Positions 21,065 to 62,578 of a DNA stretch of 64,000 nucleotides are shown in pieces. Source of the DNA: Candidatus Sericytochromatia bacterium (GTDB lineage Bacteria > Cyanobacteriota > Sericytochromatia > UBA7694 > JACMQJ01). Each line of letters begins with the position of its first letter. Positions within the stretch are counted from its first letter, which is position 1. The DNA is taken from positions 55,196 to 119,195 of the forward strand of contig JAXLXG010000016.1 of NCBI GenBank assembly GCA_046328075.1, written 5' to 3'. The notes beneath the pieces are model-generated. The model was not told the DNA's origin and did no database searches. It saw nothing but the letters and a program-made list of their open reading frames with translations. Both the position numbers and the translations under genes were made by a program.

Positions 21065-21067
21065 ATT

Positions 21068-21832: not shown

Positions 21833-21835
21833 ATT

Positions 21836-36256: not shown

Positions 36257-36401
36257 AATCTTTTTCCTTTAAAAATATACATAAAAAATAGAATCAATAA
36301 AATTGATTAAAAAATATTTAGAGACTGTGTTTTATTTATCGCAGGTATTCATGGAATAAAAGATTATACTCAAACAATAAGAGCATTTTTTTCATAAATT
36401 T

Positions 36402-36491: not shown

Positions 36492-36574
36492 GTTTTTCAT
36501 ATAGAAAACTCGGCAAATTTTATATAGTTATATTATACAATATCCTGTTAATTTTATCTATATTTTTTTATAAG

Positions 36575-40177: not shown

Positions 40178-42595
40178 TTAATATAAGCTAGACATAAAAT
40201 CTAAAACAGTTTCATTATCTATTATTAGTTTTTTATCTTTATCAATCTTTCTATTAAAAAATGAGTTTCTTTTTAAAGAGTCTGTAAATGATTTAACACC
40301 TGCAATACTAGATTTACTATCATTAGGAAATTTATCAAAATAATCAAGCATTTTATCATAAGTATCATGTGTTATTTTATTTTCAATTTTTTCTTTACCA
40401 CTAATTTTATCTGTTTCTTTTAAAAATGTTCTGATTAAATCAAATGTATCAGAACGTGTAGGATTATCAATTCTTATTTTTTTATCAAAACGTCCTTCTC
40501 TTATAGTCGCTTCGTCTAGATATTCTTTATAATTTGTTGCTGCAACTAAAATTAAGTTTGGAATATCTCTAGATTTAATAATAAGATCTAGAATTGTTGC
40601 TCTTAAGTTTAAATTACTACTTTTTGCTGCAATTCCATCAAACTCATCAAAGAAGAGAACACAACCACCTTTGCTTAAACGTGCTATTTTAAACGCAGAA
40701 TCAAATATATCTGATAGTTTTTTAGAATCTTCAGAATAAAAATGACTTGCTATATCTTTTCCTATTACTTTAATAAAATCTAAATTAAATTCCCCAGCAA
40801 TACACTGTGCTATAAAGCTTTTACCATTCCCAGGAGGTCCTTCAAGTAAAATACCTCTTTCAGAATTTATATTATAATATTTGAGTTCATCTGCTCTTAT
40901 TACTGATATAATAGAATTTCTTATTTCTTTTTTTATTGAATGATAACCAATAACAGAACTGAAATTATATCTATTTTTTTTAGTAGAAATATATTCAAAC
41001 TTATCTTTATTAGTAGAAATAACTTTTTCTTTAAAAATTTCCAGAGCAATATCAAATATATCTTTACCCGATGATTTTTTATCTAATTCATAAAGTCTTG
41101 TTTTAATAGTATTTGAAATATCTTTAATATCTCTACCAGATAAACCTTCTGTTTTATCTAAAAATATGTATTTATTAATTCTAGTCCAATTATTTTGTTT
41201 TAGATAAGGAATATATAACTCAAATAATTTTTCTCTTTCATTTCTTTTGGGTAAAGGTATAGTTTGCATATCAAAACGACTAACAACAGCACTATCTAAA
41301 ACTTCAGGAATATTTGTCGCACCTATAATGAAAATTCGTTGGAAATTATTATCAACACCGTCTACTTGAGCTATAAACTCATTTGTAATATCTTTTGCAA
41401 AACTATCTGTTAGTGCATTATCACGTTTTGGAAAAACAGCATCCATTTCATCAATAAAAATAATGGTAGGTTCTAAAGTTCTTGCTTTTTCAAAAATCTT
41501 TTTAACCTCTGCTCCAGAATGTCCTACATATAATTGCTTTAAGTCTGATAATTTAAGAGGCATAAAGTTAAAACCTCCCATATTTGCGACTGCTTTTGCA
41601 ATCATTGTTTTACCCGTACCTGGTGAACCTGTTAAAATAATTCCTTTTTTTGCTTCAGGTTTATTTAATATAAAATTATTAAACTCTTTCTTTATTCTGT
41701 CTTTAACATATTCATCTAAAATCAAATCTTTATCAAAATCTATTTTTTCTTCAATTGGTGTATGAAAATACTTATTAAAAACAGGATAAATTTCAGAAAA
41801 AGGTGCATCTTCAGCTTTATTTAATTCTGTAGCAAAAACATGACAAGCATCTTTTAATAAATAGCTATTTGTTTTAAAAGTTGTTGCTAAACTCTCAAGC
41901 TTTTCAAATGGTATTGATAAATTTGTATTTAGATATAAGAATCTATACATAGAATCAAAATATTCATCTATTCTAGCCCCTGGGATAGTTATAAAGTTAT
42001 CTCCTTGAGTATCAAAATAATAATTATCTAATAACTCAAAACTTTTTAAGCTAATAACAACATATAAATCTTTTACCTGATTATTTATTAAACGATTTAT
42101 AAACCTTATTATTTCTAAATTATGCATATGATAATTAAATAAATCAGACATCCATTCAAAACCTTCAATATATAAAAACTTTTTACCTTCTTGTACAGAA
42201 AAAAACTTTTCTATCTGATAAAGCCTCTCTATTAAATTTGAAGATAAAGATTTTTTACCTCTTTTTTGAAATTCATTATGTCTTAGAATATCTAATTCAA
42301 AATTTCCTGAGCTTTGACTATTATCAGTTAAGATATTTTCTTCTGGATTAAAAAATTTTTCTAATGCATTATAGGTTTTTTTATTAAAACAGCTAAGATT
42401 TAAATTTATGTCAAAGTATAATGAAATATCACATTTATATTCACGCCTATAAAAATAGTATATAGAATCTTTTAGAGGTAAAGTGCCATAGTAAAAATCA
42501 TTATAAAAGACATCATTTATATTTGAACCACCTAAAAAAACAGTTTTATTTGTTTTATTTAGGGCTTTTTTTATACTTTCTGCAATTCTAAACAT
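40178..42595 (-). CDS. Tandem AAA+ ATPase (two classical AAA domains) with a roughly 300-aa N-terminal domain of unknown function
   Basis: Walker A GSPGTGKT and GPPGNGKS. Walker B IIFIDEMD and VLFFDEFD. Second-region-of-homology residues present. 805 aa. Confidence 0.8.
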   Translation of the reverse strand: MFRIAESIKKALNKTNKTVFLGGSNINDVFYNDFYYGTLPLKDSIYYFYRREYKCDISLYFDINLNLSCFNKKTYNALEKFFNPEENILTDNSQSSGNFELDILRHNEFQKRGKKSLSSNLIERLYQIEKFFSVQEGKKFLYIEGFEWMSDLFNYHMHNLEIIRFINRLINNQVKDLYVVISLKSFELLDNYYFDTQGDNFITIPGARIDEYFDSMYRFLYLNTNLSIPFEKLESLATTFKTNSYLLKDACHVFATELNKAEDAPFSEIYPVFNKYFHTPIEEKIDFDKDLILDEYVKDRIKKEFNNFILNKPEAKKGIILTGSPGTGKTMIAKAVANMGGFNFMPLKLSDLKQLYVGHSGAEVKKIFEKARTLEPTIIFIDEMDAVFPKRDNALTDSFAKDITNEFIAQVDGVDNNFQRIFIIGATNIPEVLDSAVVSRFDMQTIPLPKRNEREKLFELYIPYLKQNNWTRINKYIFLDKTEGLSGRDIKDISNTIKTRLYELDKKSSGKDIFDIALEIFKEKVISTNKDKFEYISTKKNRYNFSSVIGYHSIKKEIRNSIISVIRADELKYYNINSERGILLEGPPGNGKSFIAQCIAGEFNLDFIKVIGKDIASHFYSEDSKKLSDIFDSAFKIARLSKGGCVLFFDEFDGIAAKSSNLNLRATILDLIIKSRDIPNLILVAATNYKEYLDEATIREGRFDKKIRIDNPTRSDTFDLIRTFLKETDKISGKEKIENKITHDTYDKMLDYFDKFPNDSKSSIAGVKSFTDSLKRNSFFNRKIDKDKKLIIDNETVLDFMSSLY

Positions 42596-42597
42596 AT

Positions 42598-43308
42598 TTA
42601 ATTATGAATTTGTCTATCTGAATAATCTCTAGGTAAATTTAAATCTTGAATAATATCTCTACATTTTGTAAGTCTATCTTTAAGATCAGAATGTTTGGCT
42701 AATTCATTAATATCATTTTTGACTTTATCAAGATGCCTAGACATTTCACTTTTTTCTTGTCTTAATTCATCCAATTTTTTCTGTTTATTAATAATATCAT
42801 CTTTTAAGTTATCAATATTTGTATTTTCTAGATCTTTAATATCTTTTGATAGCTTATCATCTTTTTCTTTTAGCTCTATTACTTCTTTCTTTAATTTTGA
42901 TATTCTATTAAACTTAGCTTGGTTAATTTCAATAACACTTTGAATACTCTGAATCATGTCTAGTGACTTATCGATTTTAGAGTCAAAATCGATATTAAGC
43001 CCCTTAAATTCATCATAAAATTGATTATTAATATAATTAATAGTATCTATACTTATTTCGCTTCCTAAAGAATATTTTTTATCTTTTAATATTTCCATTA
43101 AAAATTTATCGCTTAGTGGATATAAACCTAAAAGGAATTGTGTTATTTGTTCTTGTTCATTTTCTGTACAATTATTAAATGCTAAAAAGAAATCACGTAT
43201 GTTTCTTTTATAATAAAAAAAGTTTTCAAAAAAGTTATCGATATTATTTTCCAAGATATCTGTTTGATAACCCTTTTTTAATAAGTTTATGAATTGATTT
43301 ATTTCCAT
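42598..43308 (-). CDS. Coiled-coil protein, translationally coupled to the downstream double AAA+ ATPase
   Basis: 236 aa. The C-terminal half is heptad-rich (KLKKEVIELKEKDDKLSKDIKDLEN...). Its stop lies 3 nt before the ATPase start. Confidence 0.4.
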   Translation of the reverse strand: MEINQFINLLKKGYQTDILENNIDNFFENFFYYKRNIRDFFLAFNNCTENEQEQITQFLLGLYPLSDKFLMEILKDKKYSLGSEISIDTINYINNQFYDEFKGLNIDFDSKIDKSLDMIQSIQSVIEINQAKFNRISKLKKEVIELKEKDDKLSKDIKDLENTNIDNLKDDIINKQKKLDELRQEKSEMSRHLDKVKNDINELAKHSDLKDRLTKCRDIIQDLNLPRDYSDRQIHN

Positions 43309-43463
43309 TATTATTTATTATTTTATAATTTAATTACATTCTTAAAATTACACATGAAACAAGTCTATTAAATAAATTACTTTTAACCTATTTGGAAATA
43401 TATTATAAACTTTTTATAAAGATTAAATATTTAACTTTTATTTAAAAAATATTATGTTAAAAG

Positions 43464-43895
43464 TTATTCACATTTTTTAGTTAAATCTATTGTTTGATTT
43501 TTATCAATAAAAAATATATCTGCAAATCTACAATATGTTACTAAATCAAATACTTCGATCTTATTTCTCCCACCTTTTAACTTGTATAATACAGGTGTAT
43601 TAAGTATTTCACCATCATTAACTCTAACACGTCCTAATCTTGTATTAAAAATTATATTTATGTCAAAAGTATAATCCTCAATATTAGGAATATCTGTTTT
43701 TATTGGGTCTGGTAGCTCATCGCTAAGATTCCCTGAAGGAGGGATAAATTTACTAGCTATAGCACTTGGAGAACTAGACTTAATAATATCAGAAACTTCT
43801 GGATTTTTTCTAGTTGTGTTATTTATATTCTGTCCACAACCTATTAATATTAAACTTAATAAGGTAAGGTATTTTTTTTTCACTAGCTTAAACAT
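43464..43895 (-). CDS. Small lipoprotein
   Basis: Lipobox LILIGC after a positively charged N-terminus. 143 aa. Confidence 0.45.
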   Translation of the reverse strand: MFKLVKKKYLTLLSLILIGCGQNINNTTRKNPEVSDIIKSSSPSAIASKFIPPSGNLSDELPDPIKTDIPNIEDYTFDINIIFNTRLGRVRVNDGEILNTPVLYKLKGGRNKIEVFDLVTYCRFADIFFIDKNQTIDLTKKCE

Positions 43896-44332
43896 TTTAT
43901 ATTAAATATATTTATTAAATAATAACTTAAAAGTAAAATATATAATAAATTTCTTTAAAACCTTATAATAAAATTAAAATTTATTCTTTATAGTTTAAGA
44001 GTAAAAGTATGTTTTAAAAAATTAAGTTGAAGGGAAATTATCATTTTCAATTTAAACCTAGAACTCTTGTCTTACAATAAAAAAGAAGCTTTAGTTGTTT
44101 TTTAGTCATCAATTACTTAGTTATAAACTAATATAAGCTACGAATAATGTTTAAGCTTAAGACATAGAAAAATAATAAAGATTTAGTATATTGTAATAAC
44201 TTTTTTTTACTTTAAATTACAATAAAAGTTTGTTAATTCTTTATTATATTGCTCAACTAAATTACCTAAAGATAGTATTATTGTAAGTAATTGTTATAAA
44301 AGTTGTTAATTTTACTTCGGAGGAATTTTAAA

Positions 44333-44812
44333 ATGGGATTCGCAAACGTAGCTCAATCATCAGGTGGCTATCAACGTTCAGTTGCAGAATTTAATCTCTT
44401 GAAAAAAGAGAATCAAAACCAAATGCGTGTTAATAATTCACTTGCAAATGCTCGTGCTCAAGAGCTTGATGGAAGATCACAAGAAGCAGTAGAAACAACA
44501 AGAAAATATGTTGATACTTATTTACAAATGAAAGCTGCAGATAAAGCATATGATGCAGCTAAGTGGGGCTTTATTGGTTCACTAGTTAACTTAGCTGGTA
44601 AGTTGGCATCAAATATTGCTGGTGATGGTGGTGGATGGCAAATTGCAACAGACCTTGTAGGAGATAGTTTTGCTGCATTAGGTGCTTATTTTGCAATGAG
44701 AGGTGCAGGAGATGAGCTTAAACTATTAAAACAACAATTTGGTGATATGTCTGAAGCAACTAAAGAAGATCAAAATTATGTTAGAGCATTAGATGGAAAT
44801 CCTGCTGTATAA
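44333..44812 (+). CDS. Island protein A (159 aa), Cys-free Ala/Gly-rich hypothetical
   Basis: ATG at 44333 preceded by GGAGGA. The track ORF starts earlier at a TTG. No Cys and no signal peptide. Higher GC than the flanks. Confidence 0.5.
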   Translation: MGFANVAQSSGGYQRSVAEFNLLKKENQNQMRVNNSLANARAQELDGRSQEAVETTRKYVDTYLQMKAADKAYDAAKWGFIGSLVNLAGKLASNIAGDGGGWQIATDLVGDSFAALGAYFAMRGAGDELKLLKQQFGDMSEATKEDQNYVRALDGNPAV

Positions 44813-44841
44813 TTTTTTTTCATAATTATTAGGAGAAGCAT

Positions 44842-45492
44842 ATGGGAAGTATTCAAGCATTAAGATCTTGGGCTTTATCTTCTAGAGCAAATGAAGATAC
44901 AGATGTACAGATATCAGGTTTTTTAGGTAATGTTAATAAAGCTCTAGGTAAACAAATTGTAAGTATTTTAGATCAATTACAAGGTGTAGTTGGTGAAAGA
45001 ACTAAAGCTTATAATAACCTAGTTTCAAGTATTAACAGAACAATAGATGGTAAAGGTGGTATCGCAGAAAAAGCAATTCTTGGTAGTTTTGCTGGTATGA
45101 AAACTATATTTATGATACCTAAAATTGTTATGGGAAAATTTACAGCTTCAGATCTTATTAATTTTGCAACATCTGCTATAAGTAATGGTCTTAAAAAAGC
45201 AGAAATTGATGCTTCTATTGGAGGTGCTATATATGATTATGAAAAAATGGCAAGTCAATTAGGATATGCAACATTTCGTGTAACAAGTGGATCAATAAAT
45301 TCAGATGCAAGTAGTGAGCTTGGTCCTGGTATGCTAGAACAGTCAGGATTAATTACAGGGGCATCAAGATTTTTAGATATGAGGGATGCATTAATGCCTA
45401 GATATAATTACCAACAAACAAATCTAGCATCACCTGGTTCTTATGCTTATCATAGTAAAAAAGGTTTTGTTGGAACCTTAAGAAGAAATTAA
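44842..45492 (+). CDS. Island protein B (216 aa), Cys-free hypothetical
   Basis: AGGAGA RBS. No Cys and no signal peptide. Gly/Ser/Ala/Thr-rich. Confidence 0.5.
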   Translation: MGSIQALRSWALSSRANEDTDVQISGFLGNVNKALGKQIVSILDQLQGVVGERTKAYNNLVSSINRTIDGKGGIAEKAILGSFAGMKTIFMIPKIVMGKFTASDLINFATSAISNGLKKAEIDASIGGAIYDYEKMASQLGYATFRVTSGSINSDASSELGPGMLEQSGLITGASRFLDMRDALMPRYNYQQTNLASPGSYAYHSKKGFVGTLRRN

Positions 45493-45514
45493 TTTTTAGA
45501 GGTAATTTAACTAT

Positions 45515-48500
45515 ATGAATCTATCAACTTCTGGAATGGTAGCGAATTTTAGACAAGATATTGTAGGTCGTCAACTTTCAGTATCTGCTAATTCTGGGGC
45601 AAGTATTTATTATCCTACATCATCTGCTATAAAATCAAATCATGAAACTGATAAACAGGCAGAAGAAAATGCTACATGGTTTTTTGAGTATAAAGCACTT
45701 TTGAATTCAAAATTAACAACTTTAACAACTGCTTTAACAAGTGCTTATACTGCAGATTTAGACGCAAGTATGACTAGTCAAGGAGCTCCTGATAATACAG
45801 CACCAAATAATCAATGATATTAGGTGGTAAAAAATGCTATGCAGGTGAAACCGGAGAAATGGTAGATTTATATCCCGCTCCTGCTGGAGATGGGACTAAA
45901 GGAACTCATTACTAGACCCAGGTGCTGGTAGAACTACAGTTGCATACTTCCGTTCTTTTGGATTTACATTTGCACCTACTGGTGCAACAATGACTGATGT
46001 ACTTGGTACAGGGACACTACTGTGATCCAGTAAGTTTCTAAACTTGATGCTCGGTCACAAATTCTAATATTACAAATTATACTACAGGACTTCTCTTAGG
46101 TACTTCAAGGAACGCACCTGTTTCACAAACAAGTATTCAGGGACAACAACATTCTTAAGTGGCGCGGTAGTTCTGCAGGTAATACTACTAATTCTTGATA
46201 GACTTTATGTTGATCTTGCTGATATCCGCATCAATGATGTGCCTAATAATAAAATAGTGAACCTCAATATTTACCTTCTCCTCCCTAACCCTCCAAATAC
46301 ACCTAATCCTAATTGCTAAGACAATAGAGCAGTGAGCCACTTATCAACAGTATTAGGCAGAAAAAACATTGGTAATAATTTAGAGTTAACTCTTTATAAA
46401 TTTTTCTCCTAAACCTGAGAATTATGATCAATAAGATTTGGTTTAATGGATGTATTGTTGGAACATCTTCATTGGCTTTAGTGGTCAAAGTACAAGTATA
46501 TCTTAAGATATACTTCTTGAACACTCTGGTAATCCTGTTCAGAACTCTTATATAGAGATGAAACAAGAAAAGACTGTTAGCATTTTTATCATTATAAAGT
46601 TAATTTCATATTTTTTATAATTATGAGGGAAAGTAATATATGTCAATAGGCTTTATAAAGTGCTGGTACATCAAGCAGAACTGTAGATATTTATAGTGGT
46701 GGCAGGAGAAATAGAAGTTAGACATGTTACAAAAATTATTAAATGAGATATGATAAGTCAAAACAGATCTTGATAGATTAATGATTCTGATCAGACTTTT
46801 AAAGGCACATCTGATATAACTTCAAGGCAACAGAAATTACTCAATTCAACTATAATAAGAGTCTGTTAATGGTTGGTCAGAAAATTGGTATGCTGAATAT
46901 ATCTAGAGCAGTTCTTGCTCTTAGAGCTGATCTTTTACAAAAAAAATTTTAGTCTTCTAACACAATAGAGTATTAGAAAAGTGCTGTGGATGTGGAATCC
47001 TGATAGACAATCTGTATTTGCTCCTTACTCTAATAGAACATTTAAAGATGATATTAATAATACTGATATATTAAATAATAAAATGCGTATAATAAATATT
47101 ATGATGGTTGTTAAAGAGTTAACTTCATCTGGACCTCCAAATCCTATACCACCAGGTTATACTCCGTTATGGAATACATGGCAATACAAAACTATCTTAG
47201 TAATGTTGATGGAACAGGTTTCTCTGGTAGAACTGGTTTAACTAGTTATACAACCTATGCTGCAAATAGTGTTTATCATTCATATAGTGAATATACAAGT
47301 GCAATAGCTGTTCCAACTCCCAAGTGAGCAAAGGCTGATATGCAGAGATTGGAGATGTTAAACGGAAATACTCCTGCAATATCATTTCCCTTATAGTTCA
47401 AGGTAATCTATCCAAATGAGTAATGATAATCCTGGCTCTGTGGATATGCTTCTAGTAATGTAACCAAAAGACAAGCTCAAAGAAATAAAGCACTTCAAGC
47501 AATAAATGATGCATTAGCAACACTTGGTGACATCTGCACCAACAACAGAGCCAGAGTTATCTGAATACAATGAAATAAGGATGATGCAGTTGAAGCTGGT
47601 TTACAAGTTATGGATAACTTATGGAAAGGTTCTATGGCACTGGTAGTAAATTCAAGTGGTAGTAATGATACAGATTCAGATGATTATAGAGATTTTCTTG
47701 ATGAAACTAATGTACAAAGTAATCTATAAACCTATATACAATCCCAGTTGCAGGTTAAAACATAATTCAAACATCAACAGCACTGAAATTTTTCACCTAC
47801 TACAATACCTTTGTTCTAGGTGATTATCCTAGCATTGAGTCATTAATGCGAAGCATATGCAAATCCTAATAGTATTACCATGGTAGTGGAACTTTTGACT
47901 ATCAAAATATCAAGGTTTAGATGGAACAGGTTTTAAAGTTAAAAAGTGCCTGAGTTTGGAATGAATTGAATTATATAATTTGTTACAAATGTATTCCTAC
48001 GATGTAAAATGCAATGAACAACAACAGATGGTTTAACTCACCTGCAATAAATCAGATAGTTCACGTCTCATTATTAGGTATACAATACAACTAATATCTA
48101 TAAAGGTAATTATTATGATGCTAAACCAATGGCTTCCTCATTTGGTATTTATGGATGTCATTATTATAGCATATTATTTTCAGTAATGGCAGATGCAGAT
48201 AAAATTACCCTAGGAAGTTCAGTGTAAACACGAGGCTTTGGGTTTTGCACATACACACAGGTATACAAAGTGATGAGTCTACATCTCAAATAGTTATTCC
48301 ATTAACACCTCCACCGCTAGTATTGATATCGATTTTTTTTTTTTTTTAAATTTTCAGCAATTGGTGGGCATATACTATGGTCAGGCATCTGCTATTTCCA
48401 TTCTCTTCTCTGAGGTTAGTTATAGTTGAAGTTCTTGGGAAGTGTAAGATTACCAACTATAGGTTTAAGTGCTTCTGTTGCTGTGGTATTGGTGAATTAT

Positions 48501-50656
48501 TGGTTTCCTATAGCTTGATTATTTGCATTATAAATGTAGGTTTTTCATATGATATATTAGCTCAAGCTTTTAAAAATACTTACAAAGTTAAAAGCATTTT
48601 TGTAGTTGAAACGATAATGATAAACTCTTATGCTACATCAGAAGTGGTATAGCAATGGATAGTTATGCAGCAAGAGCAGTATCACTTCATATTAGTTTTC
48701 TTGAAACAGTTAATATAACTTTGATATACCTGTTCTTGTTATACAAATTCATTCCTTTAGGAGATTTAATGGAAACATTTATGACAAATGGTTACCTTCT
48801 CTGTTTCTATTTTAACAAGTATACTTGGTTTAGGAATGTTAGATAACTAATGATGACAGACATATGTAAATGATCAAGAACTTAGAGAAAGACTATTTTA
48901 AGTATAAACATGCAGTTCAAGAGGCAGAATCTAGAGAAACAGAAACAGGTGCATTTTTGCAACAAATGCTTTCTTAGGATATTGAAATGTCAGATATGTC
49001 ATCTGAATACCTGGATAAGGAACTCAACAAAATGAAGAAATCAATAAATATGGACTTAGCAAAGGCATTTACATGGCAGGACCAAAATAATTCAAAACTC
49101 TTTAGCAACTGCTTCTGCAGTATCAAATAAAAGTAGAAAATAATTTGCTGGTTAACTGGTGCATTAAAAGCTGTATTTGATGGTCAAAAAGATAAAAAGA
49201 TTACTAAATATTATGTATGACTTAATGTATAGAGATCAGCTTGGTAAGGTGGTGCAAAAGGTGATATTGGTAATGCTGTTGGACAATTAGATATAGTTAG
49301 TGGTTTCACTGGTGGAAAGTGGAACTATGGAGCAGACTAGAATCCTTCTTAAGAAAATCATCATTACTTCTGAAGCATATGATTATATAGAAAATGATCA
49401 TAAACCTTATGAGGAGATAGTGACTTTAACTATAAATCAGGGGTATTTTAAGTGGTGTTCTAGTTGGTGGTATATTCCAAGCTTCTTTGAAGCTAATACT
49501 GACTTTATATTAGAAGGTATGGCAAATACAAGAAGATTTGCAAAAGTGATTGGGATGACATATTATAACATTATGCTCTAGTAACCATCTTTATATAATA
49601 ATCAAGATGCAGAAACAGGTTTGGACACAAAATTATAAACTAGGTAGAGGATATTTACAATATAATAATAGACAAATTCTAGTATAGTTAGTCATATCCA
49701 AGATGGTATTCTTGTATAAAAAGGTTGGGATGATGCAGATTTTATTTAAATTATGATATAAATGAGGTTTATACTGCTACAAGAAAGAGTTAAGTTTGTA
49801 ATCTAACTTTTATAAGGTTGACAGTGGTAAGGAGACTTAACTGAAATCAAATAACTGGTTCAAATCAGTTACCAAATATTAATAGTGATTTAGGAGCAAC
49901 TAGACAAACCGCAACAAAGTAAAAAGAATATGTAGGTTCAGTTAAAATACTTGAAAATGTGATGGTGCTAATGCTGTAAAAATCATGAGACCTTTACTGC
50001 TGGTATATATAAGGAGATAATAAAAGTATTTTGATAGGCAGACTAGCAATTCATATAGTTTAGCTTTTAAAACTACTGCTGATGGAAATCAATATAATCT
50101 ATTTGGTTCTCAAACTTTAAACCCACAATGGAATTCTTAAAAATATCTAATAGATAAAAATAAAACAGATGAAGCTTTAATTGAACATAATAAGAAGTGA
50201 GAATGATGACTTATAAAAGCAAAATTAAGTGGAATGGGTGCTGCTACAAGAAAAGATGTTCAAATTTTGGAAATTACTGTATGAAATTGACCTAAACAGA
50301 AGTTAATACATACTATGACATTTACACGTAAGATCAGATGGACAGAAATCTCTCAATAACAGTTAAAAAGAATAAAAAGGATATGTTTTGAAACAGGTTT
50401 AATGAGTAGTATATTCTTAAGTGGTCAAACATATCATCAAAGTGGTGGTGGTATAACTTCTTCAATTGAGATAAGATATGACCCAACTCAAGGTAAATCT
50501 AGTTTACAAACAGATACTAGAGAGAACTTTAACCAAAGTAATGTTAACTTTGACCCATACAATACTCCATTCTTAACAAGAAGTAGAGGACAAGCAACAA
50601 CATATTTAAATAGTTACTTTGCTTATAAAAAACGCTCTACTAATAATAAGACCTAA
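45515..50656 (+). pseudogene. Decayed tandem paralog of the 1035-aa island protein. The N-terminal 100 codons and C-terminal 84 codons are intact; the roughly 4.6-kb middle is disrupted
   Basis: The 45515-45817 product (MNLSTSGMVANFRQDIVGRQLS...YKALLNSKLTTLTTALTSAYTA) aligns with the N-terminus of the 50683 protein (MTFSNVNVFRNTVVGLRASE...YQALMQNRLNRLKQDLTNAYKA). The 50402-50656 product (GGGITSSIEIRYDPTQGKSS) aligns with its C-terminus (GGSVNATMDIQYDPTSNKFI). Between them lies coding-like + strand sequence with in-frame TAG/TGA/TAA codons and frame changes. The longest ORF there is 93 aa. Confidence 0.5.
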
Positions 50657-50682
50657 TTAAATTTTAAGAGGTAAGATAATAA

Positions 50683-53600
50683 ATGACTTTTTCTAATGTT
50701 AATGTTTTCAGAAATACTGTTGTTGGTTTAAGAGCCAGTGAACCAGGAGCAACAGCTGATAAAATTGTAAGAGGTGGAGCATTTGCCCCTGATACAAAAG
50801 AAGCTGTTTCAATGATGCGTTCGGATCTTGATAATCAATGGGAAAATAGTTATATAGTAAAATATCAAGCTTTAATGCAAAATAGATTAAATAGATTAAA
50901 GCAGGATTTAACAAATGCTTATAAAGCTATATTGGAGGTATCCTCTGTCCAACAGATAAGAGAAAATGGTTTAACTACTGCAAATTCTGCTGTTACTGAT
51001 GTATATGGCAAAATGATCAATAATGCAGGTGAAGCATTTAAAAGGTTAAAGTACTATAATAACGAAAGTGAATTTACTGGGGATGATGCTAATGATGGTA
51101 GTTCTTCTGATGGTACACCTAGTTATTTATTAGATATGAATTTAAAACAATTAGGTAGTTCAGGCGATGGGACAGGAACTAATGCAAGTAGAGCAGGAAA
51201 AATAGAGATGAGGAAACTCTATGTTACAGGTCCAGCTTTACAAGTTAGCAATTCTATGAAAGTTGCTCTAAGAACTGAAGAAGTACCACCTGAATATAAA
51301 AACCCTCAAATACCTCTTATTGGGGCTCTTTTACCTGGTGAAAAAGGCTTTACTCCTGCACAAAAAATAGCAGAGTATAGTGCAGATGTTAAATCTGGTG
51401 GATTCTGGACAACTTTAAATTATCTTTATAATTTTGCTCCAAGAGAAATGAAATATAGCTACCCTACAGCATATAGTACAAACTCAGAAGAAGCTGGTTC
51501 TAGACAAATTGCTGCTGGAACAGCAAATCAAAGACAAGCAACCATATTTAATGGTGAAGTAACTGATGCTAGAGATGTTTTTGCTCCATCTGGTGGTTTT
51601 CTTAGTTTTGGTGATTATAAGGCAGGGGGGCAATTCGAAGATAGTTCAATACCTAGCTATACTTCAAATAATGGAGATAAACCACCTACTGGTGCTAGAA
51701 TAAAATGGCAAGAAACTGATGCTAATAGTGGATATCAAACAGAAAGAAGCCCAATTATAATTCAAAGAGATAATAATCAAAATACTTATAATAGCAGTGT
51801 TCTATCAAGAATATATTCGCCTCTTGATTCAAGGGTAATAACTAGAAGAGAGTCAGATAATGATAATAACTTCGATTTAAATAAGATTAGACTTGCTGAT
51901 GCCACAATAAAAACATTTACTGATTATCCTAATGGTAATCCTAATAAACTTACTTATTACGGAACAGAAGATTCTTTTGGTTCTACAGTAGGTATGGATG
52001 ATCGTATTAAGTGGGAATACAATCATGATGGAGTTGGAGCAGCAGATTTTGACCAAAATGGTATTGATGGTGGCGATGTCCATGTAGCTAAAAGTATATT
52101 TTTAAACCATTATACAGTACAAACCCAAGAGATTGAACTTAATTCAAGCTCTTTATCTTCTGGTAAAGTCAAAGCATTAGACTATGATAGTGTAACTAAT
52201 GACAATGATTATCAACAAATGACTTTGAGATCAGCAGGTTTAGACGGATCAATTGAGCACGTCTGGAATGATGAAGATAAAGATAAAAGAGTTGACAATA
52301 ACAAAGATGAAAAAGTTATGGTTGGTGGATCTAGCAAAATATCTAAAAATTTTGATGGTAAATTTGTTAGTGATCTCTATAAACTCAATAGTTTCAATGG
52401 TCAGAATATAGCAACAGAAAGTGCTAATGTTAATATAACTACAAAAAATGATTCTGATAAAGTTGTAATTGCAGAATATGAAGGATTTAAAAGAGCTCAA
52501 ACCATGAATGCAGGTCTAGCTGAAGATTTATTCTCATCAGTAAATAATACTCCTAGAACTGAACAAGATGCAAAAAGATTAGCTAAAAAACTGGAAACAG
52601 AAATTAATGCGACTACAATGGTTGATACAGATTGGCATTATGCAGAACATAAAACTAATAGTAGTGTTATGTTTAGATTTATTGATAAAGTATCATTTAA
52701 AACACCATCAGGTGGCTCAGATAGTGTTAATGTTCTTTACCGTTCTGATATGATTGAGGGTGGTGCTGGTGGAAATTTTAATAATGTAACTGTAGGTTTT
52801 AGAAAAACATTTAAGTTAGAACCTAGAGACTTCCAAAAAGCTGTATATGCTCCACCAACTAATGCAGATATATATATTAATACTCCTAGCTATGTTGATC
52901 AAGATGTTTGGGTTGATGCAATAACAACAAACTCAAGTACTGGAACTGGAGATGGTTTAGGTGGTGCCAGTGATGCTGGGGGCTTAGTTGTAAATGGAAA
53001 AATTGTAACTGGAACAAATATGGGTGGGGGTAGATTTAGATATAATTTAAAGGGTTTCTTACAATCTGGAGATAATGTTATTGGTGCCCAAGTTAAATTT
53101 GATATTGCTGGAACAAATGATAGTTTCAAGTTAGAACCAGTTACAGGCTTAAACACAACTGCTATAAATAACTGGATAAATGGTAGAGTTTCTACAGATA
53201 GACTTCAAAACGGTGATTCAGATCCGACATTAACTAAGCTAAATGATCCTACTTTACCTAATAACTTATCATCATGGCAAACAAAAATGATGGTCAGAAA
53301 AGCTGGTGACTTTACTATTGCAGATATTATTCCTAATATAGATACAAATGGTGATGGTATTCCTGATCCTGTAGATGCGAATGGCACTGGTGGACCTGAT
53401 ATAGCAGAATTTAATGCAGCTTTTGCAAATCCTAAAAAACCAACAGGAGCAGAGCTTAATGCAGCAAACCCTCTAATGCTAGATTATTTATCAAGATTTC
53501 AAAAAAAGTACAAAGAAGAACTTGACTCATTAGCTTCTGTTGATACAGTTACTAAAGTTAAAGATAACAATACATTTGCTAATATGTTAACCAAATCTTT

Positions 53601-53790
53601 GAATAAAAAAGACTATCAAGATATATTTAATTTAGGATTATTAAATACTGAGCTTGGAAAGACAATGGTTATTAAAGCTCAAGTTAGTGCTCCAACTGGT
53701 GGTTCAGTTAATGCAACAATGGATATACAATATGATCCAACTAGTAATAAATTTATTTTAGTACAAAATAAATTTGATGCTATGGGTTAA
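50683..53790 (+). CDS. Large Cys-free Thr/Asn/Gly/Asp-rich structural-type protein (1035 aa); candidate S-layer, surface-array or capsid-like subunit; no signal peptide
   Basis: Zero cysteines in 1035 aa. No hydrophobic N-terminus. Gly/Asp clusters resemble Ca-binding loops (DTNGDGIPDPVDANGTGGPD, GGAGGNFNN, GDGLGGASDAGG). AGAGG RBS. Elevated GC. Confidence 0.7.
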   Translation: MTFSNVNVFRNTVVGLRASEPGATADKIVRGGAFAPDTKEAVSMMRSDLDNQWENSYIVKYQALMQNRLNRLKQDLTNAYKAILEVSSVQQIRENGLTTANSAVTDVYGKMINNAGEAFKRLKYYNNESEFTGDDANDGSSSDGTPSYLLDMNLKQLGSSGDGTGTNASRAGKIEMRKLYVTGPALQVSNSMKVALRTEEVPPEYKNPQIPLIGALLPGEKGFTPAQKIAEYSADVKSGGFWTTLNYLYNFAPREMKYSYPTAYSTNSEEAGSRQIAAGTANQRQATIFNGEVTDARDVFAPSGGFLSFGDYKAGGQFEDSSIPSYTSNNGDKPPTGARIKWQETDANSGYQTERSPIIIQRDNNQNTYNSSVLSRIYSPLDSRVITRRESDNDNNFDLNKIRLADATIKTFTDYPNGNPNKLTYYGTEDSFGSTVGMDDRIKWEYNHDGVGAADFDQNGIDGGDVHVAKSIFLNHYTVQTQEIELNSSSLSSGKVKALDYDSVTNDNDYQQMTLRSAGLDGSIEHVWNDEDKDKRVDNNKDEKVMVGGSSKISKNFDGKFVSDLYKLNSFNGQNIATESANVNITTKNDSDKVVIAEYEGFKRAQTMNAGLAEDLFSSVNNTPRTEQDAKRLAKKLETEINATTMVDTDWHYAEHKTNSSVMFRFIDKVSFKTPSGGSDSVNVLYRSDMIEGGAGGNFNNVTVGFRKTFKLEPRDFQKAVYAPPTNADIYINTPSYVDQDVWVDAITTNSSTGTGDGLGGASDAGGLVVNGKIVTGTNMGGGRFRYNLKGFLQSGDNVIGAQVKFDIAGTNDSFKLEPVTGLNTTAINNWINGRVSTDRLQNGDSDPTLTKLNDPTLPNNLSSWQTKMMVRKAGDFTIADIIPNIDTNGDGIPDPVDANGTGGPDIAEFNAAFANPKKPTGAELNAANPLMLDYLSRFQKKYKEELDSLASVDTVTKVKDNNTFANMLTKSLNKKDYQDIFNLGLLNTELGKTMVIKAQVSAPTGGSVNATMDIQYDPTSNKFILVQNKFDAMG

Positions 53791-53829
53791 TTATGATTAA
53801 AATATTTTTATAAAGGAAGGTAATTATAT

Positions 53830-54384
53830 ATGGGCATAGAATTAGTAAAAAATCAAAACTTAGCTCAATATGCAAGTTTATTAGCTAACCCTCAGTTTTT
53901 AAATGCTATAAAATCAGCTACAAAGAATGATAAAACAGGCAAATACAGTTCTTTACTTGAAAATCTAGAAAAACTTAGCAGTTCTTTAGAGGAAAGTAAT
54001 TCTGATACAAAAACAACTGAAACGGATTCAGGTGAAAGTTTAAGCTTACTAAAATCTGTTATGCCTCAATCTAGTGTAGGTTCAACAAATAAATCAGGTC
54101 AACAAAGTTTAGCTATGGATGATTCTATTAGAGAGGCAATAAATCAACTTATAGCAAATGCAGAGATGATGGAAGATATGTTAGATCTTGAGGTTACACC
54201 ATCAGGTGATGAGTTTACAAATCTTTTAGCAAAATTCCGTGAAATAATTACTAAACTTGATCAAGAAACCAGAAAAATACACGATGAAGTTAAGGAAAAG
54301 AAAACTAAAGAAGAATTTAAACTTACTCCATCAAGTAATTCAAAAAGTGGTTTTAATGAATCAATAACTTTATTAGCTAAGTAA
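53830..54384 (+). CDS. Acidic Cys-free helical protein (184 aa); chaperone- or scaffold-like candidate
   Basis: AAGGAAGG RBS. Ser/Glu/Leu-rich and predicted helical. Its stop abuts the TPR gene start (TAAATG). Confidence 0.5.
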   Translation: MGIELVKNQNLAQYASLLANPQFLNAIKSATKNDKTGKYSSLLENLEKLSSSLEESNSDTKTTETDSGESLSLLKSVMPQSSVGSTNKSGQQSLAMDDSIREAINQLIANAEMMEDMLDLEVTPSGDEFTNLLAKFREIITKLDQETRKIHDEVKEKKTKEEFKLTPSSNSKSGFNESITLLAK

Positions 54385-55284
54385 ATGTCAAAAACTAAAA
54401 TAGAAGAACTTATAAATAAAGGTACTAAGTATATAAAAGATAAAGAATATGACAAGGCCGAAGCAACTTTTAATGAAATAATAAAAATTGATTCAACCTT
54501 ATCTTTACCTTTTATAAATCTTGGAATGGTTAGACTCTTAAATCAACAAGTAGATTCTGCAATAGACTTATTTAATAAGGCTTTAGAACTTGATCCTAGA
54601 AGCTTAGAATCTTACCAGAATTTGGGAAGTTGTTATTTTTATAAAGAAGATATTGAAAAAGCTGAATCTATGTATATTAAAGCTTTACAGATAGATCCTT
54701 CAAATTTTAATACATATCATAATTTAGCTTTTTTATATATTAATTCTCAACAATGGAATAAAGCTAAAAATCCTTTAGAAAAAATAATTCAAATTGATGA
54801 GAATAATATTCAAGCATCATTTTATTTAGCAATGATTTATTTAAATTCTAAAGAATACTATCCAGCAATAGCGAACTTTTTATATACTCTTAGTATTAAT
54901 CCTAATTATAGTAGTGCTAGAATTGGATTATCTGATTGTTATTATAAAATAGGTCGTTATAAATCTGCTTTATCTGAGTTAAATAAGATAATTGAAGCAA
55001 TTCCTGATTTTGTTACACCTTATGTTAAATCAGCTTTGATACATATAGAAATAGGTGAAAAAGATAATGCAATACCTCTCCTTGAAAAAGCTGTTGAATT
55101 AAATGAAAATAATCTTGATATATCAGAAATATTAGCAGTTATATATGAGGAAAAGGGTGAGAGGGAAAAAGCTGAACAACTTTATCAACATATTTTAATT
55201 AAAGATTCAGAAAATAAAAGTGCTTATGAAGCTCTAGAAAGAATAAAAGAAGTTTCTGCAAAACTTTCTGAGCAGAATAGTTAA
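54385..55284 (+). CDS. Tetratricopeptide repeat protein
   Basis: About seven 34-aa TPR units (A..YN.G......A...Y..AL..DP). 299 aa. Confidence 0.7.
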   Translation: MSKTKIEELINKGTKYIKDKEYDKAEATFNEIIKIDSTLSLPFINLGMVRLLNQQVDSAIDLFNKALELDPRSLESYQNLGSCYFYKEDIEKAESMYIKALQIDPSNFNTYHNLAFLYINSQQWNKAKNPLEKIIQIDENNIQASFYLAMIYLNSKEYYPAIANFLYTLSINPNYSSARIGLSDCYYKIGRYKSALSELNKIIEAIPDFVTPYVKSALIHIEIGEKDNAIPLLEKAVELNENNLDISEILAVIYEEKGEREKAEQLYQHILIKDSENKSAYEALERIKEVSAKLSEQNS

Positions 55285-55401: not shown

Positions 55402-56076
55402 ATGGGAAGTTTGTCTATAAATAACCTTATAGTAAGTATTGGTGTTGCTTTTGATGCTCAACTTAAAGCAGCAGATAATCTATTTTTCTCAGCAGCAGTT
55501 GATTTTACTGATCCTACTAGACCAATGTTTGGTGGTGCTCTTGGTACAGCATCTGGAGCTTCAACAACTTTATATAATGCTGCTCAACCAGGTGTTGGTT
55601 ATTCTAGTGCCAATAATGCTATTTCAGGAGATCCTGTTACAGTTAGACAAACAGTAACAGCTGAGGGTCCTAGATACCAAGTAACAGATGGCAATGGTAG
55701 AGAAATAAAAATAGAAGCTCAATCAACTGCAGGTCCATATAGAAATATTCCAAGATATATGGTTAAATCTGATGGTATAGTTTATGATGTGTTATCACCT
55801 ACCACTACAGCTGGTACAGGACAATTTGGTATTTGTGACAATACTAAAGCAAATGGTTCACCTGGTTTAACTTCATTTGCTCCTGGTGCTAATGGTATAA
55901 CAATTGCAGAATTTGCAAGACCTGTTGGAAGAATCACATTTAAAGCAAAAGAAGGTGCAACTCTTGCACGTGCACAAGATGACTTACAAAGAGTTGGAAG
56001 TATAGTTCAATTATTAACTAGATTATTAGAATCAGTTCAAGATGAATCTAAAGGTTTTAGTAGTTTAATAAGATAA
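55402..56076 (+). CDS. Island protein (224 aa), Gly/Thr/Ala-rich hypothetical
   Basis: ATG at 55402 with an upstream GGAGA. The track ORF starts at a TTG at 55387. One Cys. No signal peptide. Confidence 0.5.
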   Translation: MGSLSINNLIVSIGVAFDAQLKAADNLFFSAAVDFTDPTRPMFGGALGTASGASTTLYNAAQPGVGYSSANNAISGDPVTVRQTVTAEGPRYQVTDGNGREIKIEAQSTAGPYRNIPRYMVKSDGIVYDVLSPTTTAGTGQFGICDNTKANGSPGLTSFAPGANGITIAEFARPVGRITFKAKEGATLARAQDDLQRVGSIVQLLTRLLESVQDESKGFSSLIR

Positions 56077-56146
56077 CATTTTAATAACATAAAAAGAGCT
56101 TTAAGTAAAACTTAAAGCTCTTTTTATTATTTTTACTAAACAATAT

Positions 56147-62188: not shown

Positions 62189-62578
62189 CTATATAAACTT
62201 TTTATTAGAAGCAAAATCTGAATCACTAGGGTCTTTAAAATCTATTGCCCATATATTAGATGAACCAATCATTGCACTTTGCTGTGTATATGGATTAGTC
62301 ACGGATTTATTATACTTTTTACCATTTGCTTCAGTTGCTAATTCGGATAAATTTAAAGGATAAACTTGCCAATCTACATTATAGGTTTCAAGCATAATTT
62401 GTAATGTTCTAATATTTGTCACTAAAGATGCTTCTAATGCTCTTTTTTTAGCTGAAACAACATAATTTGAAACACCAATACCAACAAGAATCCCGATTAT
62501 TACAACAGCAGTCATTAACTCTATAAGAGTCATACCACTATTATGCTTTTTGGCTATGTACTTCATATTCCTCATCAA
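62189..62578 (-). CDS. Prepilin-type N-terminal cleavage/methylation-domain protein (type IV pilin or pseudopilin); true start probably an internal Met
   Basis: KKHNSGMTLIELMTAVVIIGILVGI is the class III signal/N-methylation motif (G|MTLIE). Overlaps the rsfS 3' end in another frame. Confidence 0.7.
   Translation of the reverse strand: MMRNMKYIAKKHNSGMTLIELMTAVVIIGILVGIGVSNYVVSAKKRALEASLVTNIRTLQIMLETYNVDWQVYPLNLSELATEANGKKYNKSVTNPYTQQSAMIGSSNIWAIDFKDPSDSDFASNKKFI

What the first reader, a model, noticed from the sequence alone, without database searches (positions are those of the whole stretch)
50683..53790. 1035-aa cysteine-free protein with Gly/Asp loop clusters: RsaA/SapA-like S-layer candidate
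The protein has zero Cys over 1035 residues and no signal peptide. Its N-terminus is conserved with the upstream paralog and with no recognised domain. Its C-terminal third is rich in D/G/N loops (NIDTNGDGIPDPVDANGTGGPDIAEF, GGAGGNFNNVTVG, GDGLGGASDAGGLVVNG) that resemble Ca-binding motifs of type-I-secreted surface proteins. It sits behind a strong RBS. Size, composition and paralog organisation match the few characterised T1SS S-layer systems, yet no transporter is nearby.
Basis: partly seen in the sequence, partly recalled or inferred. Interest (0 to 1): 0.6.

Follow-up and report, generated by a model that had tools for sequence, protein, structure and literature searches.

The report
Orphan cysteine-free surface-assembly operon subunit
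The 1035-residue cysteine-free protein is a real, conserved gene, but it shows no sign of being an RsaA/SapA-type S-layer protein; it is one subunit of an eight-to-nine-gene operon of unknown function found only in Sericytochromatia (non-photosynthetic relatives of cyanobacteria), and it most likely helps build a sugar-binding structure outside the cell.

Summary
The ORF (50683-53790, +) is real: 1035 aa, no Cys, no signal peptide, good RBS, under purifying selection (pN/pS 0.13 against a 99%-identical strain). It is NCBI MFN8577413.1 from a Candidatus Sericytochromatia MAG. It matches no Pfam, NCBIfam, PHROGs or PADLOC model. Only 64 relatives were found among 1.84 billion representative proteins, nearly all Sericytochromatia.

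The gene sits in a conserved operon: 159 aa, 224 aa, 330 aa, ~1330-1680 aa, this protein, 184 aa, a TPR protein, and in some clades a 224-aa protein. The three large proteins share an N-terminal helix module and a C-terminal module. Six families are almost Cys-free (about 0.02%), while the TPR protein is normal (0.7%).

Best reading (0.4): a Sec-independent extracellular assembly with the TPR protein as cytoplasmic chaperone. No T1SS genes occur in the window or in 24 related loci.

The upstream paralogs carry 74 single-base frameshifts in this window, probably a sequence-quality artefact.

The parts
44333..44812 (+). First operon gene, 159 aa, Cys-free. Orthologue of the 159-172-aa gene that opens the operon in related loci (the mechanical ORF starts at TTG 44303).
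   Evidence: tblastn 57% identity to L001 g159. Synteny across loci. Family has 2 Cys in 1773 residues. No family or PDB match.
44842..45492 (+). Second operon gene, 216 aa, Cys-free, with a very conserved N-terminus (MGSIQALRS...) and a mildly hydrophobic middle.
   Evidence: Family has 1 Cys in 3079 residues. No family or PDB match.
45515..46600 (+). Orthologue of the ~330-aa paralog, the smallest protein carrying both shared terminal modules. The first 100 codons are intact; 10 single-nt frameshifts follow from 45822.
   Evidence: N-terminal similarity to the 1035-aa protein, E 1e-6. C-terminal module, hhalign E 1e-9.
46640..50656 (+). Orthologue of the ~1315-1680-aa paralog. It carries 64 single-nt frameshifts (41 deletions, 23 insertions) and only 3 in-frame stops; the last 84 codons are intact. 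It is intact in related strains.
   Evidence: Frameshift-aware alignment gives 67% identity to the L019 1315-aa protein. Control genes show 0 frameshifts. Intact orthologues in L001, L019 and L020.
50666..50672 (+). Shine-Dalgarno-like AAGAGGT, 10 nt upstream of the ATG.
   Evidence: Read directly from the sequence.
50683..53790 (+). The finding itself: a 1035-aa Cys-free acidic protein (NCBI MFN8577413.1, Candidatus Sericytochromatia MAG).
50683..50793 (+). Residues 1-37. The sequence is conserved (M1, F3, G31, G32, F34, P36) but the model predicts disorder. Candidate export or assembly segment (inference).
   Evidence: pLDDT below 50. Invariant columns. N-termini aligned.
50794..50970 (+). 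Residues 38-96: long amphipathic helix. This is the N-terminal module shared with the 330-aa and ~1330-aa paralogs.
   Evidence: Helix 38-89 in the model. hhalign E 1.8e-9 against the 1331 family. BLASTP E 1e-6.
52780..53292 (+). Residues ~700-870: galactose-binding-domain-like (lectin/CBM-type) beta-sandwich.
53341..53367 (+). DTNGDGIPD (residues 887-895): a DxDxDG-type Ca-binding-loop motif inside a lineage-specific insert.
   Evidence: Regex match. Columns 876-900 are 85% gaps in the family. The motif class is enriched family-wide, 17 observed against 0.47 in shuffles.
53563..53787 (+). Residues 961-1035: the C-terminal module (two helices plus a three-stranded sheet, motif PTGG...I.YDP) shared with both paralog families.
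   Evidence: hhalign E 1e-9 against the 330 family. BLASTP E 2e-5 against the 1331-aa protein. pLDDT 81-87.
53830..54384 (+). 184-aa Cys-free protein with weak coiled-coil-type matches only. Candidate chaperone or adaptor (inference).
   Evidence: Conserved position in the operon. Only weak coiled-coil-type matches.
54385..55284 (+). 299-aa TPR protein with normal Cys content. Candidate cytoplasmic chaperone (inference).
   Evidence: TPR_1/2/8 hits, E down to 6e-39. Partial, below-cutoff similarity to PilW, LcrH/SycD and other models. Family has 21 Cys in 3004 residues. Start codon directly abuts the preceding stop codon.
55402..56076 (+). 224-aa protein, 79% identical to its L001 orthologue. 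Last gene of the transcription unit in the low-GC clade and in L003.
   Evidence: No family match.
56089..56127 (+). Intrinsic-terminator-like hairpin (18-bp stem plus T run) that closes the operon.

Best explanation
The 1035-aa protein is one structural subunit of a multi-protein assembly specific to Sericytochromatia. The assembly is most likely located outside the cytoplasm, on the cell surface.

The operon encodes three or four large paralogs of about 330, (390), 1330-1680 and 1000-1180 aa. Each carries the same N-terminal segment (a conserved but disordered ~35 residues followed by a ~50-residue amphipathic helix) and the same C-terminal helix/sheet module. Between these lie different, fast-evolving inserts.

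I infer that the shared termini are the handles by which the subunits are recognised for export and/or join one another. The inserts would be the exposed parts. In this protein they include a galactose-binding-like lectin domain and Ca-binding-type loops, so this subunit would act as a glycan-binding adhesin or outer-layer component.

I infer that the TPR protein, which has normal Cys content, and perhaps the 184-aa coiled-coil-like protein stay in the cytoplasm as chaperones. Export would be Sec-independent, by a transporter encoded elsewhere (T1SS or other; not identified).

Shown: operon conservation, paralogy of the termini, Cys depletion, absence of a signal peptide, the lectin-like fold, and purifying selection.

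Inferred: extracellular location, assembly through the termini, the chaperone roles, and adhesion.
For: - The operon is conserved in gene order in about 24 loci from two very different GC backgrounds.
- Terminal modules are shared among the three families. Shorter family members of 590-800 aa keep the N-terminal ~340-390 profile positions.
- Conservation is high at residues 26-100, 176-275 and 951-1035. It is low and gap-rich in between.
- Six families are nearly Cys-free: 3/37,259, 7/4,195, 1/20,927, 2/1,773, 1/3,079 and 1/2,269. The co-transcribed TPR protein has 21/3,004 and the pooled ORFs of these loci (operon genes included) average about 0.5%.
- There is no signal peptide or TM segment in any of them.
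- DxDxDG-type loops recur at non-homologous positions: 17 against 0.47 expected, and 8 against 0.2.
- The protein is acidic, with 130 D+E against 107 K+R.
- pTM 0.76 indicates a compact, defined multidomain body.
- pN/pS is 0.13.
- In three different genomic arrangements the operon lies next to taxis or pilus genes: MCP-CheW-CheX, PilD-PilMNOQ, or an Hpt protein. This is a weak hint of a surface or motility context.
Against: - No exporter is encoded in or near the operon in any locus, and no whole genome could be searched.
- Location is inferred only from composition and motifs. This genome is Cys-poor overall, and two unrelated large proteins in the window also lack Cys.
- The AF2 alignment is shallow (36 sequences), and residues 300-470 are modelled with low confidence.
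- I could not inspect coordinates, so contact between the N- and C-terminal modules is not shown.
- Nothing demonstrates polymerisation or sugar binding.
- The pilus and chemotaxis neighbours are separated from the operon by sucD. They may simply reflect conserved genome backbone.
Confidence: 0.4

Rival explanations
1. One reading: a type-I-secreted, Ca-stabilised S-layer protein of the RsaA/SapA kind. It would be exported through an ABC/MFP/TolC system by a C-terminal signal and crystallise on the outer membrane.
For: It is Cys-free, acidic, about 1000 aa and lacks a signal peptide. It has Ca-loop-type motifs. Its C-terminal ~75 residues are conserved. From my own knowledge, known cyanobacterial S-layer proteins (Sll1951, SwmA) are T1SS/RTX substrates.
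Confidence: 0.15
2. A secreted multi-component toxin or attack complex, for example for predation or competition. The large paralogs would be delivered proteins and the TPR protein their chaperone, by analogy with T3SS translocator operons.
For: The proteins are large, Sec-independent and Cys-free, with an adjacent TPR protein that partly resembles LcrH/SycD-class chaperones (73.5 bits, below the cutoff of 104.8). The N-termini are disordered. The lectin-like domain could target cell surfaces.
Confidence: 0.1
3. An intracellular structural or scaffold complex, such as a cytoskeletal or organelle-like assembly, that is never exported.
For: No protein has a signal peptide or TM segment, and no exporter lies nearby. 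The genome is Cys-poor overall, so Cys absence is weaker evidence than it looks.
Against: A roughly 25-fold Cys depletion is held across six families and across high- and low-GC lineages, while the co-transcribed TPR protein is normal. DxDxDG loops and a galactose-binding-like domain are typical of extracellular proteins. The surface-like pattern of variable, indel-rich inserts also argues against this reading.
Confidence: 0.12
4. A phage-derived structural module (tail fibre, tailocin or virion protein).
Against: There are no PHROGs hits for any operon protein. No significant BFVD match. No relative in 2.9 million IMG/VR contigs. No HK97 or double-jelly-roll fold. No phage genes lie in the window or the loci. 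The chromosomal position is fixed and syntenic next to sucD.
Confidence: 0.02

Closest known systems
RsaA (Caulobacter crescentus S-layer protein) and RTX-type cyanobacterial S-layer proteins (Sll1951, SwmA)
   Same: About 1000 aa, Cys-free, acidic, no N-terminal signal peptide, with Ca-binding-type loops. Presumed extracellular.
   Different: No RTX nonapeptides or beta-roll, and no sequence or fold similarity. No T1SS genes nearby. The gene is embedded in a multi-paralog operon. The conserved parts are an N-terminal helix module and a folded C-terminal module.
SapA/SapB family (Campylobacter fetus S-layer proteins)
   Same: Paralogs share a conserved N-terminus. The proteins are Cys-poor and Sec-independent.
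   Different: Sap homologues are same-sized variable cassettes exchanged by recombination next to the sapCDEF T1SS (from my own knowledge). Here the paralogs range from 330 to about 1680 aa, each is orthologously conserved across a class, they share the C-terminus as well, and there is no transporter.
Flagellar axial proteins (rod/hook/HAP/flagellin)
   Same: Functional analogy only. This is a set of Cys-free, signal-peptide-less paralogs of very different sizes that share N- and C-terminal modules around variable inserts. The N-terminus is disordered in the monomer, and chaperone-like genes lie in the operon.
   Different: No Flg_bb_rod, Flagellin_N/C or FlgK-type match. The C-terminus ends in a beta-sheet rather than a D0 helix. 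No flagellar genes lie nearby.
Lectin-tipped pilus operons (e.g. chaperone-usher FimH-type adhesins)
   Same: Analogy only. This is an operon of structural paralogs with shared assembly elements, one of which carries a lectin-like domain.
   Different: Those subunits have Sec signal peptides, Ig-like pilin folds, and an usher and chaperone. None of these is present here.
Galactose-binding domain-like / CBM beta-sandwiches of GH2 and GH78 enzymes and Pleurotus ostreatus lectin
   Different: No catalytic glycosidase domain accompanies it. Ligand-binding residues were not assessed.

Membership tests
RTX / T1SS-secreted S-layer proteins (RsaA type) | Tandem GGxGxDxUx nonapeptides that form a Ca-bound beta-roll | tested here: not met
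RTX / T1SS-secreted S-layer proteins (RsaA type) | Sequence or fold homology to a characterised S-layer protein | tested here: not met
RTX / T1SS-secreted S-layer proteins (RsaA type) | Cognate ABC transporter, membrane-fusion protein and TolC-like outer-membrane factor | tested here: inconclusive
   None in the 64-kb window or within 10 kb in 24 related loci. Whole genomes could not be searched.
RTX / T1SS-secreted S-layer proteins (RsaA type) | Uncleaved C-terminal secretion signal that is necessary for export | not testable with these tools
   The C-terminal 75 residues are conserved but modelled as a folded helix/sheet module. The function needs an experiment.
SapA-type variable S-layer cassettes | Several similar-sized homologues with a conserved N-terminus and variable remainder, switched by recombination | tested here: not met
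   The paralogs are about 330, 390, 1330-1680 and 1000-1180 aa. Each is conserved as an orthologous family in fixed order, and they also share the C-terminus.
SLH-anchored S-layer proteins | SLH domain(s) | tested here: not met
   No SLH hit in Pfam at E <= 0.01.
Flagellar axial proteins | Flg_bb_rod / Flagellin_N / Flagellin_C terminal helices | tested here: not met
   No such Pfam or NCBIfam hit for the 1035-aa protein; the ~1330-aa family was scanned against Pfam and NCBIfam, the 330-aa paralog against NCBIfam only. The C-terminus is beta-stranded.
Galactose-binding domain-like (CBM/lectin) fold, residues ~700-870 only | Jelly-roll beta-sandwich superposable on GH2/GH78 sugar-binding domains or fungal lectin | tested here: met
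Phage virion / tail proteins | HK97, double-jelly-roll or tail-protein homology, in a phage gene context | tested here: not met
   No PHROGs hits. No BFVD hit at E <= 1e-3. No relative in IMG/VR. No phage genes nearby.
Double-glycine-leader substrates of peptidase-domain ABC transporters | N-terminal leader ending in GG with the LSxxELxxIxGG-type pattern, plus a C39-ABC transporter | tested here: not met
   G31-G32 is invariant in this family, but the preceding residues do not fit the leader pattern. GG is replaced by AG or absent in the paralog families. No such transporter lies nearby. Cleavage was not testable.
DxDxDG-type calcium-binding loops (EF-hand-like / TSP3-like) | D-x-[DN]-x-[DN]-G-x-x-D motif | tested here: met
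   DTNGDGIPD at 887-895. The motif class is enriched 36-fold over shuffles in the family, but at non-homologous, non-conserved positions. Ca binding was not tested.

The most novel reading that the evidence does not exclude
The operon encodes a previously undescribed kind of extracellular appendage or adhesive fibre, confined to Sericytochromatia. It would be built from 'axial-type' paralogs that polymerise through shared N- and C-terminal modules and are exported by a Sec-independent route with a dedicated TPR chaperone. It would be functionally analogous to flagellar or pilus axial families without being homologous to them. It may be tied to taxis or motility, given the recurrent MCP-CheW-CheX, PilD-PilMNOQ and Hpt neighbours.
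Probability: 0.18. Interest if true: 0.85.

Novelty: new variant of a known kind. Interest (0 to 1): 0.55.

Why it matters
Sericytochromatia are uncultured, non-photosynthetic relatives of oxygenic cyanobacteria, and almost nothing is known about their cell envelope or behaviour. This operon is among their most distinctive lineage-specific gene sets. It is about 12 kb long and fixed in gene order. Its proteins match no described family, and the one protein modelled here matches no solved fold apart from one lectin-like domain. If the proteins form a surface assembly, it would be a new, non-homologous solution to building an extracellular structure without the Sec pathway. It would also give a handle (lectin domain, Ca loops) for probing what these organisms attach to. 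If the proteins are instead ordinary T1SS cargo, the family still defines a new non-RTX class of such cargo.

Tried and rejected
1. RTX / beta-roll: regex, Pfam and fold searches were all negative.
2. Flagellar axial homology: the MSFS... N-terminus recalls FlgE, but no Flg or Flagellin model hits and the C-terminus is beta-stranded.
3. Double-glycine leader: the invariant GG at residues 31-32 looked promising. However, the leader pattern is absent, and the GG belongs to a shared G-(G)-F-x-x-P-T structural motif that is AG in some paralogs.
4. Phage origin: PHROGs, BFVD and IMG/VR were all negative.
5. Anti-phage defence system: PADLOC matched only generic TPR.
6. Profile searches of all six accessory and paralog families against PDB sequences gave nothing at E < 0.03.
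7. Pfam on all 14 members of the ~1330-aa family gave nothing.
8. Looking for a conserved exporter in the flanks of L001, L003, L005, L008, L010, L012, L014 and L015 turned up only housekeeping, chemotaxis and type IV pilus genes.
9. The AFDB fold library was unavailable.
10. Full-text literature searches on Sericytochromatia with motility, flagella, pili, secretion or chemotaxis found nothing describing this operon.
11. Natural pseudogenisation of the upstream genes was rejected in favour of sequence error. There are 74 single-nt indels but only 4 in-frame stops, and corrected identity (67%) is near that of the neighbouring genes (77-79%). No homopolymer bias was seen.
12. An alternative genetic code for the ORF-free 4.6 kb was rejected, because stops occur in all frames at about 8% and the matching frame changes roughly every 60 nt.
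Full report

The ORF runs from 50683 to 53790 on the + strand and encodes 1035 residues. It has no cysteine; the commonest residues are N 9.2%, G 8.5%, D 8.2%, T 7.9% and S 7.9%. AAGAGGT lies at 50666-50672, 10 nt before the ATG.

No 19-residue window exceeds a Kyte-Doolittle mean of 0.76, so there is no signal peptide or membrane helix. All orthologues begin MTFSNV or MSFS, which confirms the start codon.

The exact protein is NCBI MFN8577413.1, 'hypothetical protein U0354_11190', from a Candidatus Sericytochromatia MAG. A strain that is 99.3% identical over 13 kb differs by 40 nt and 10 residues in this gene. That gives pN/pS = 0.13, so the gene is under purifying selection.

Zero Cys alone is less striking than it sounds. 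The window's long ORFs average 0.58% Cys, and a 960-aa Wza-like protein and a 686-aa SPFH protein also have none.

**2. No known family, and very few relatives**

Pfam, NCBIfam, PHROGs and PADLOC give no hit. A word-indexed search of 5.8 billion proteins found 37 relatives, none with an informative name. An exhaustive HMM search of 1.84 billion cluster representatives found 64 hits at E <= 1e-3. The weaker hits match only the shared terminal modules or the beta-sandwich region (profile positions ~715-850).

GTDB species representatives gave 15 loci. Twelve are titled Candidatus Sericytochromatia, one Candidatus Blackallbacteria, and two are labelled only Cyanobacteriota/Cyanobacteria. JGI metagenomes (241 million records) gave 5 loci. 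IMG/VR gave none.

**3. Structure**

An AF2 model built from 36 sequences has mean pLDDT 73 and pTM 0.76. Its layout is:
- residues 1-37, disordered;
- residues 38-89, one long helix;
- residues ~100-300, a confident alpha/beta region;
- residues 300-470, a poorly modelled variable stretch;
- several beta-rich domains;
- residues 930-983, helices;
- residues 995-1034, a three-stranded sheet.

No beta-roll, Ig array, enzyme core, HK97 fold or double jelly roll was found. BFVD gave nothing significant.

**4. The Gly/Asp loops**

None of the 36 family members contains a GGxGxDxUx nonapeptide. The three flagged loops fall at residues 690-700, 751-775 and 876-925. These are the least conserved parts of the C-terminal third. 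Columns 876-900 are 85% gaps across the family, and 754-765 has pLDDT below 50.

DTNGDGIPD (887-895) does fit the DxDxDG-type Ca-loop pattern. Such motifs occur 17 times in the family against 0.47 in composition-preserving shuffles. In the ~1330-aa paralog family they occur 8 times against 0.2. They sit at non-homologous positions, so Ca-type loops are repeatedly gained in variable regions. That fits proteins that live outside the cell but is not an RTX signature. Related sequences share some of these motifs, so the counts overstate the number of independent events.

**5. The gene is part of a conserved operon**

In the nearest relatives (L001, L019, L020, L021) and in distant high-GC Sericytochromatia (L003-L016, L022-L024) the gene order is fixed:
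- a 159-172-aa gene;
- a ~200-240-aa gene (399 and 509 aa in two loci);
- a ~300-335-aa gene;
- in some lineages, an extra ~180-530-aa paralog;
- a ~1170-1680-aa gene;
- this protein (~940-1190 aa);
- a ~165-205-aa gene;
- a ~290-320-aa TPR protein.

The low-GC clade and L003 add a highly conserved 224-aa gene. In the window the gaps between genes are 1-117 nt, and an 18-bp-stem terminator follows the last gene at 56089-56127.

None of the accessory proteins matches any family or PDB sequence. The exception is the TPR protein, which gives only generic TPR hits. Those include partial, below-threshold similarity to PilW, LcrH/SycD and MamA models.

**6. Paralogy**

The 330-aa, ~1330-aa and 1035-aa families share two modules:
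- An N-terminal module: G-(G)-F-x-x-P-T followed by an amphipathic helix with the motif Y-x-A-L-[ML]-x-[NS]-[RK]-L...L...A-Y. Support is hhalign E 1.8e-9, and BLASTP E 1e-6 within the window.
- A C-terminal module of about 70 residues: [DE]-Y-x-D-[IV]-F...G-L...P-T-G-[GS]...I-x-[YF]. Support is hhalign E 1e-9 and 5.8e-6, and BLASTP E 2e-5.

Some family members of 590-800 aa keep the N-terminal ~340-390 profile positions. So the design is conserved ends around a replaceable middle.

**7. Cysteine avoidance is an operon-wide, lineage-wide property**

Cys counts per total residues are:

| Family | Cys / residues |
|---|---|
| 1035-aa family | 3 / 37,259 |
| 330-aa family | 7 / 4,195 |
| ~1330-aa family | 1 / 20,927 |
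| 159-aa family | 2 / 1,773 |
| 224-aa family | 1 / 3,079 |
| 184-aa family | 1 / 2,269 |
| Co-transcribed TPR protein | 21 / 3,004 |

The pooled ORFs of the same loci (operon genes included) average about 0.5%. This internal contrast is the strongest argument that six of the products leave the reducing cytoplasm, or are exported unfolded, while the TPR protein stays behind. That is the pattern expected for cargo and chaperone.

**8. Export route and context**

No T1SS triad, injectisome, flagellar or other exporter gene lies in the 64-kb window or within 10 kb in the other loci. In the high-GC lineages, the annotated flanks hold the following:
- sucD immediately downstream of the operon;
- then MCP-CheW-CheX in L008, L014 and L016 (sucD and MCP only on the shorter L007 contig);
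- or PilD-PilM-PilN-PilO-secretin in L010-L013, L015 and L024.

In the low-GC clade, a single-domain Hpt protein sits just upstream (L001, L019, L020). Three different arrangements beside taxis or pilus genes are a lead, not proof. I could not search whole genomes.

**9. Mechanism proposed (confidence 0.4)**

I propose a Sec-independent, extracellular, multi-subunit assembly. The shared termini serve export and/or subunit joining. The variable inserts are exposed. In this subunit they carry a lectin-like domain and Ca loops, so it would be a glycan-binding adhesin or outer component. The TPR protein, and perhaps the 184-aa protein, act as cytoplasmic chaperones.

Shown: operon conservation, paralogy of the termini, Cys pattern, absence of a signal peptide, the lectin-like fold, and selection.

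Inferred: location, assembly, chaperoning and adhesion.

Rivals:
- T1SS S-layer protein (0.15);
- secreted toxin or attack complex (0.1);
- intracellular scaffold (0.12);
- phage-derived module (0.02).

**10. The upstream paralogs in this window**

Between 45818 and 50400 no ORF exceeds 93 aa in any frame. Even so, the DNA is collinear with the intact 328-aa and 1315-aa genes of the 73%-related strain L019.

A frameshift-aware protein-to-DNA alignment recovers 67% identity in both genes. It needs 10 + 64 single-nucleotide frameshifts (47 deletions, 27 insertions) and finds only 4 in-frame stops. The same method gives 0 frameshifts in three flanking control genes, which are 77-79% identical. 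The frameshift sites are not enriched in homopolymers.

About one indel per 60 nt with almost no nonsense substitutions is not what neutral decay produces. It looks like unpolished consensus error confined to this stretch.

The short-read contig of the 99%-identical strain (L018) ends 63 nt upstream of the 1035-aa gene, inside the last codons of the ~1330-aa gene. This suggests the region is hard to assemble, possibly because it varies between strains. I regard the genes as probably intact in the organism (about 0.8), but only read mapping can settle it.

**11. Comparison and novelty**

By sequence and fold the protein belongs to no described family.

- It resembles RsaA-type S-layer proteins in size, Cys absence, acidity and lack of a signal peptide. 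It fails their defining features (RTX/beta-roll, homology), and no T1SS gene lies nearby.
- It resembles SapA only in having a conserved N-terminus among paralogs.
- In design it is closer to flagellar axial proteins or pilus subunit sets, where paralogs of different sizes share terminal modules. It is not homologous to either.

I rate it a new variant of a known kind: a non-RTX, multi-paralog, Sec-independent surface-protein system. There is an 18% chance that it is a genuinely new type of appendage.

Interest is 0.55. The operon is robust, conserved and wholly uncharacterised, and it sits in an evolutionarily important, uncultured lineage. Its function is still inferred only from composition, motifs and one domain.

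Noticed in passing
window 45818-50400: A 4.6-kb stretch with no ORF longer than 93 aa in any frame. It is collinear with two intact operon genes of related strains but is interrupted by 74 single-nt frameshifts (47 deletions, 27 insertions) and only 4 in-frame stops. The flanking genes are perfect. It is most likely a sequence-quality artefact rather than natural pseudogenes.
   Followed up: yes
L018 position 1 (equivalent to window 50620): The short-read contig of a 99.3%-identical strain ends 63 nt upstream of the 1035-aa gene, exactly at the 3' end of the frameshift-ridden region. This hints that the ~1330-aa gene is strain-variable or otherwise hard to assemble.
   Followed up: partly
window 48333-48347: A run of 15 T, the only homopolymer of 10 or more (A/T) or 8 or more (G/C) bases in the 64-kb window. 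It lies inside the frameshifted region.
   Followed up: no
window 36394-36525 (-): A c-di-AMP (ydaO-type) riboswitch scoring 95.9 bits. It lies directly upstream of a 686-aa Cys-free SPFH/Band-7 membrane protein (34196-36256, -), which struck me as an unexpected gene for this riboswitch to control (judged from general knowledge, not checked).
   Followed up: no
window 12425-17746 (+): A 1773-aa ORF with a single Cys and no Pfam match. It is a second giant orphan protein in the window and shows no significant similarity to the operon family.
   Followed up: no
window 44001-54000 versus flanks: The operon is more GC-rich (0.31-0.33; individual operon genes 0.25-0.37, five of the seven intact ones at 0.30 or above) than most of the surrounding DNA (0.21-0.31).
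   Followed up: no
L008 15916-18742, L014, L016; L010-L013, L015, L024 ~17400-23400; L001 2884-3216, L019, L020: The operon lies near taxis or pilus genes in three different arrangements: MCP-CheW-CheX, PilD-PilM-PilN-PilO-secretin, or an Hpt protein.
   Followed up: partly
window 40178-43895 (-): Divergently transcribed from the operon are a lipoprotein-like 143-aa gene, a 236-aa orphan and an 805-aa protein with two AAA ATPase domains. This trio is not found next to the operon in L001 or L020.
   Followed up: partly
window 62189-62578 (-): A type IV pilin-like gene with the N-terminal methylation motif (PF07963, E 3e-7), about 6 kb downstream of the operon.
   Followed up: no
L003 2468-4447 (-): In this Sericytochromatia locus a TPR-GT41 (O-GlcNAc-transferase-like) glycosyltransferase is divergently adjacent to the operon. 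This raises the possibility that the exported proteins are glycosylated.
   Followed up: no
window 25269-26069 (+): A 266-aa Cys-free orphan. It is homologous to the 329-aa gene that sits beside the Hpt gene just upstream of the operon in L001 and L020, but here it lies 18 kb away.
   Followed up: no
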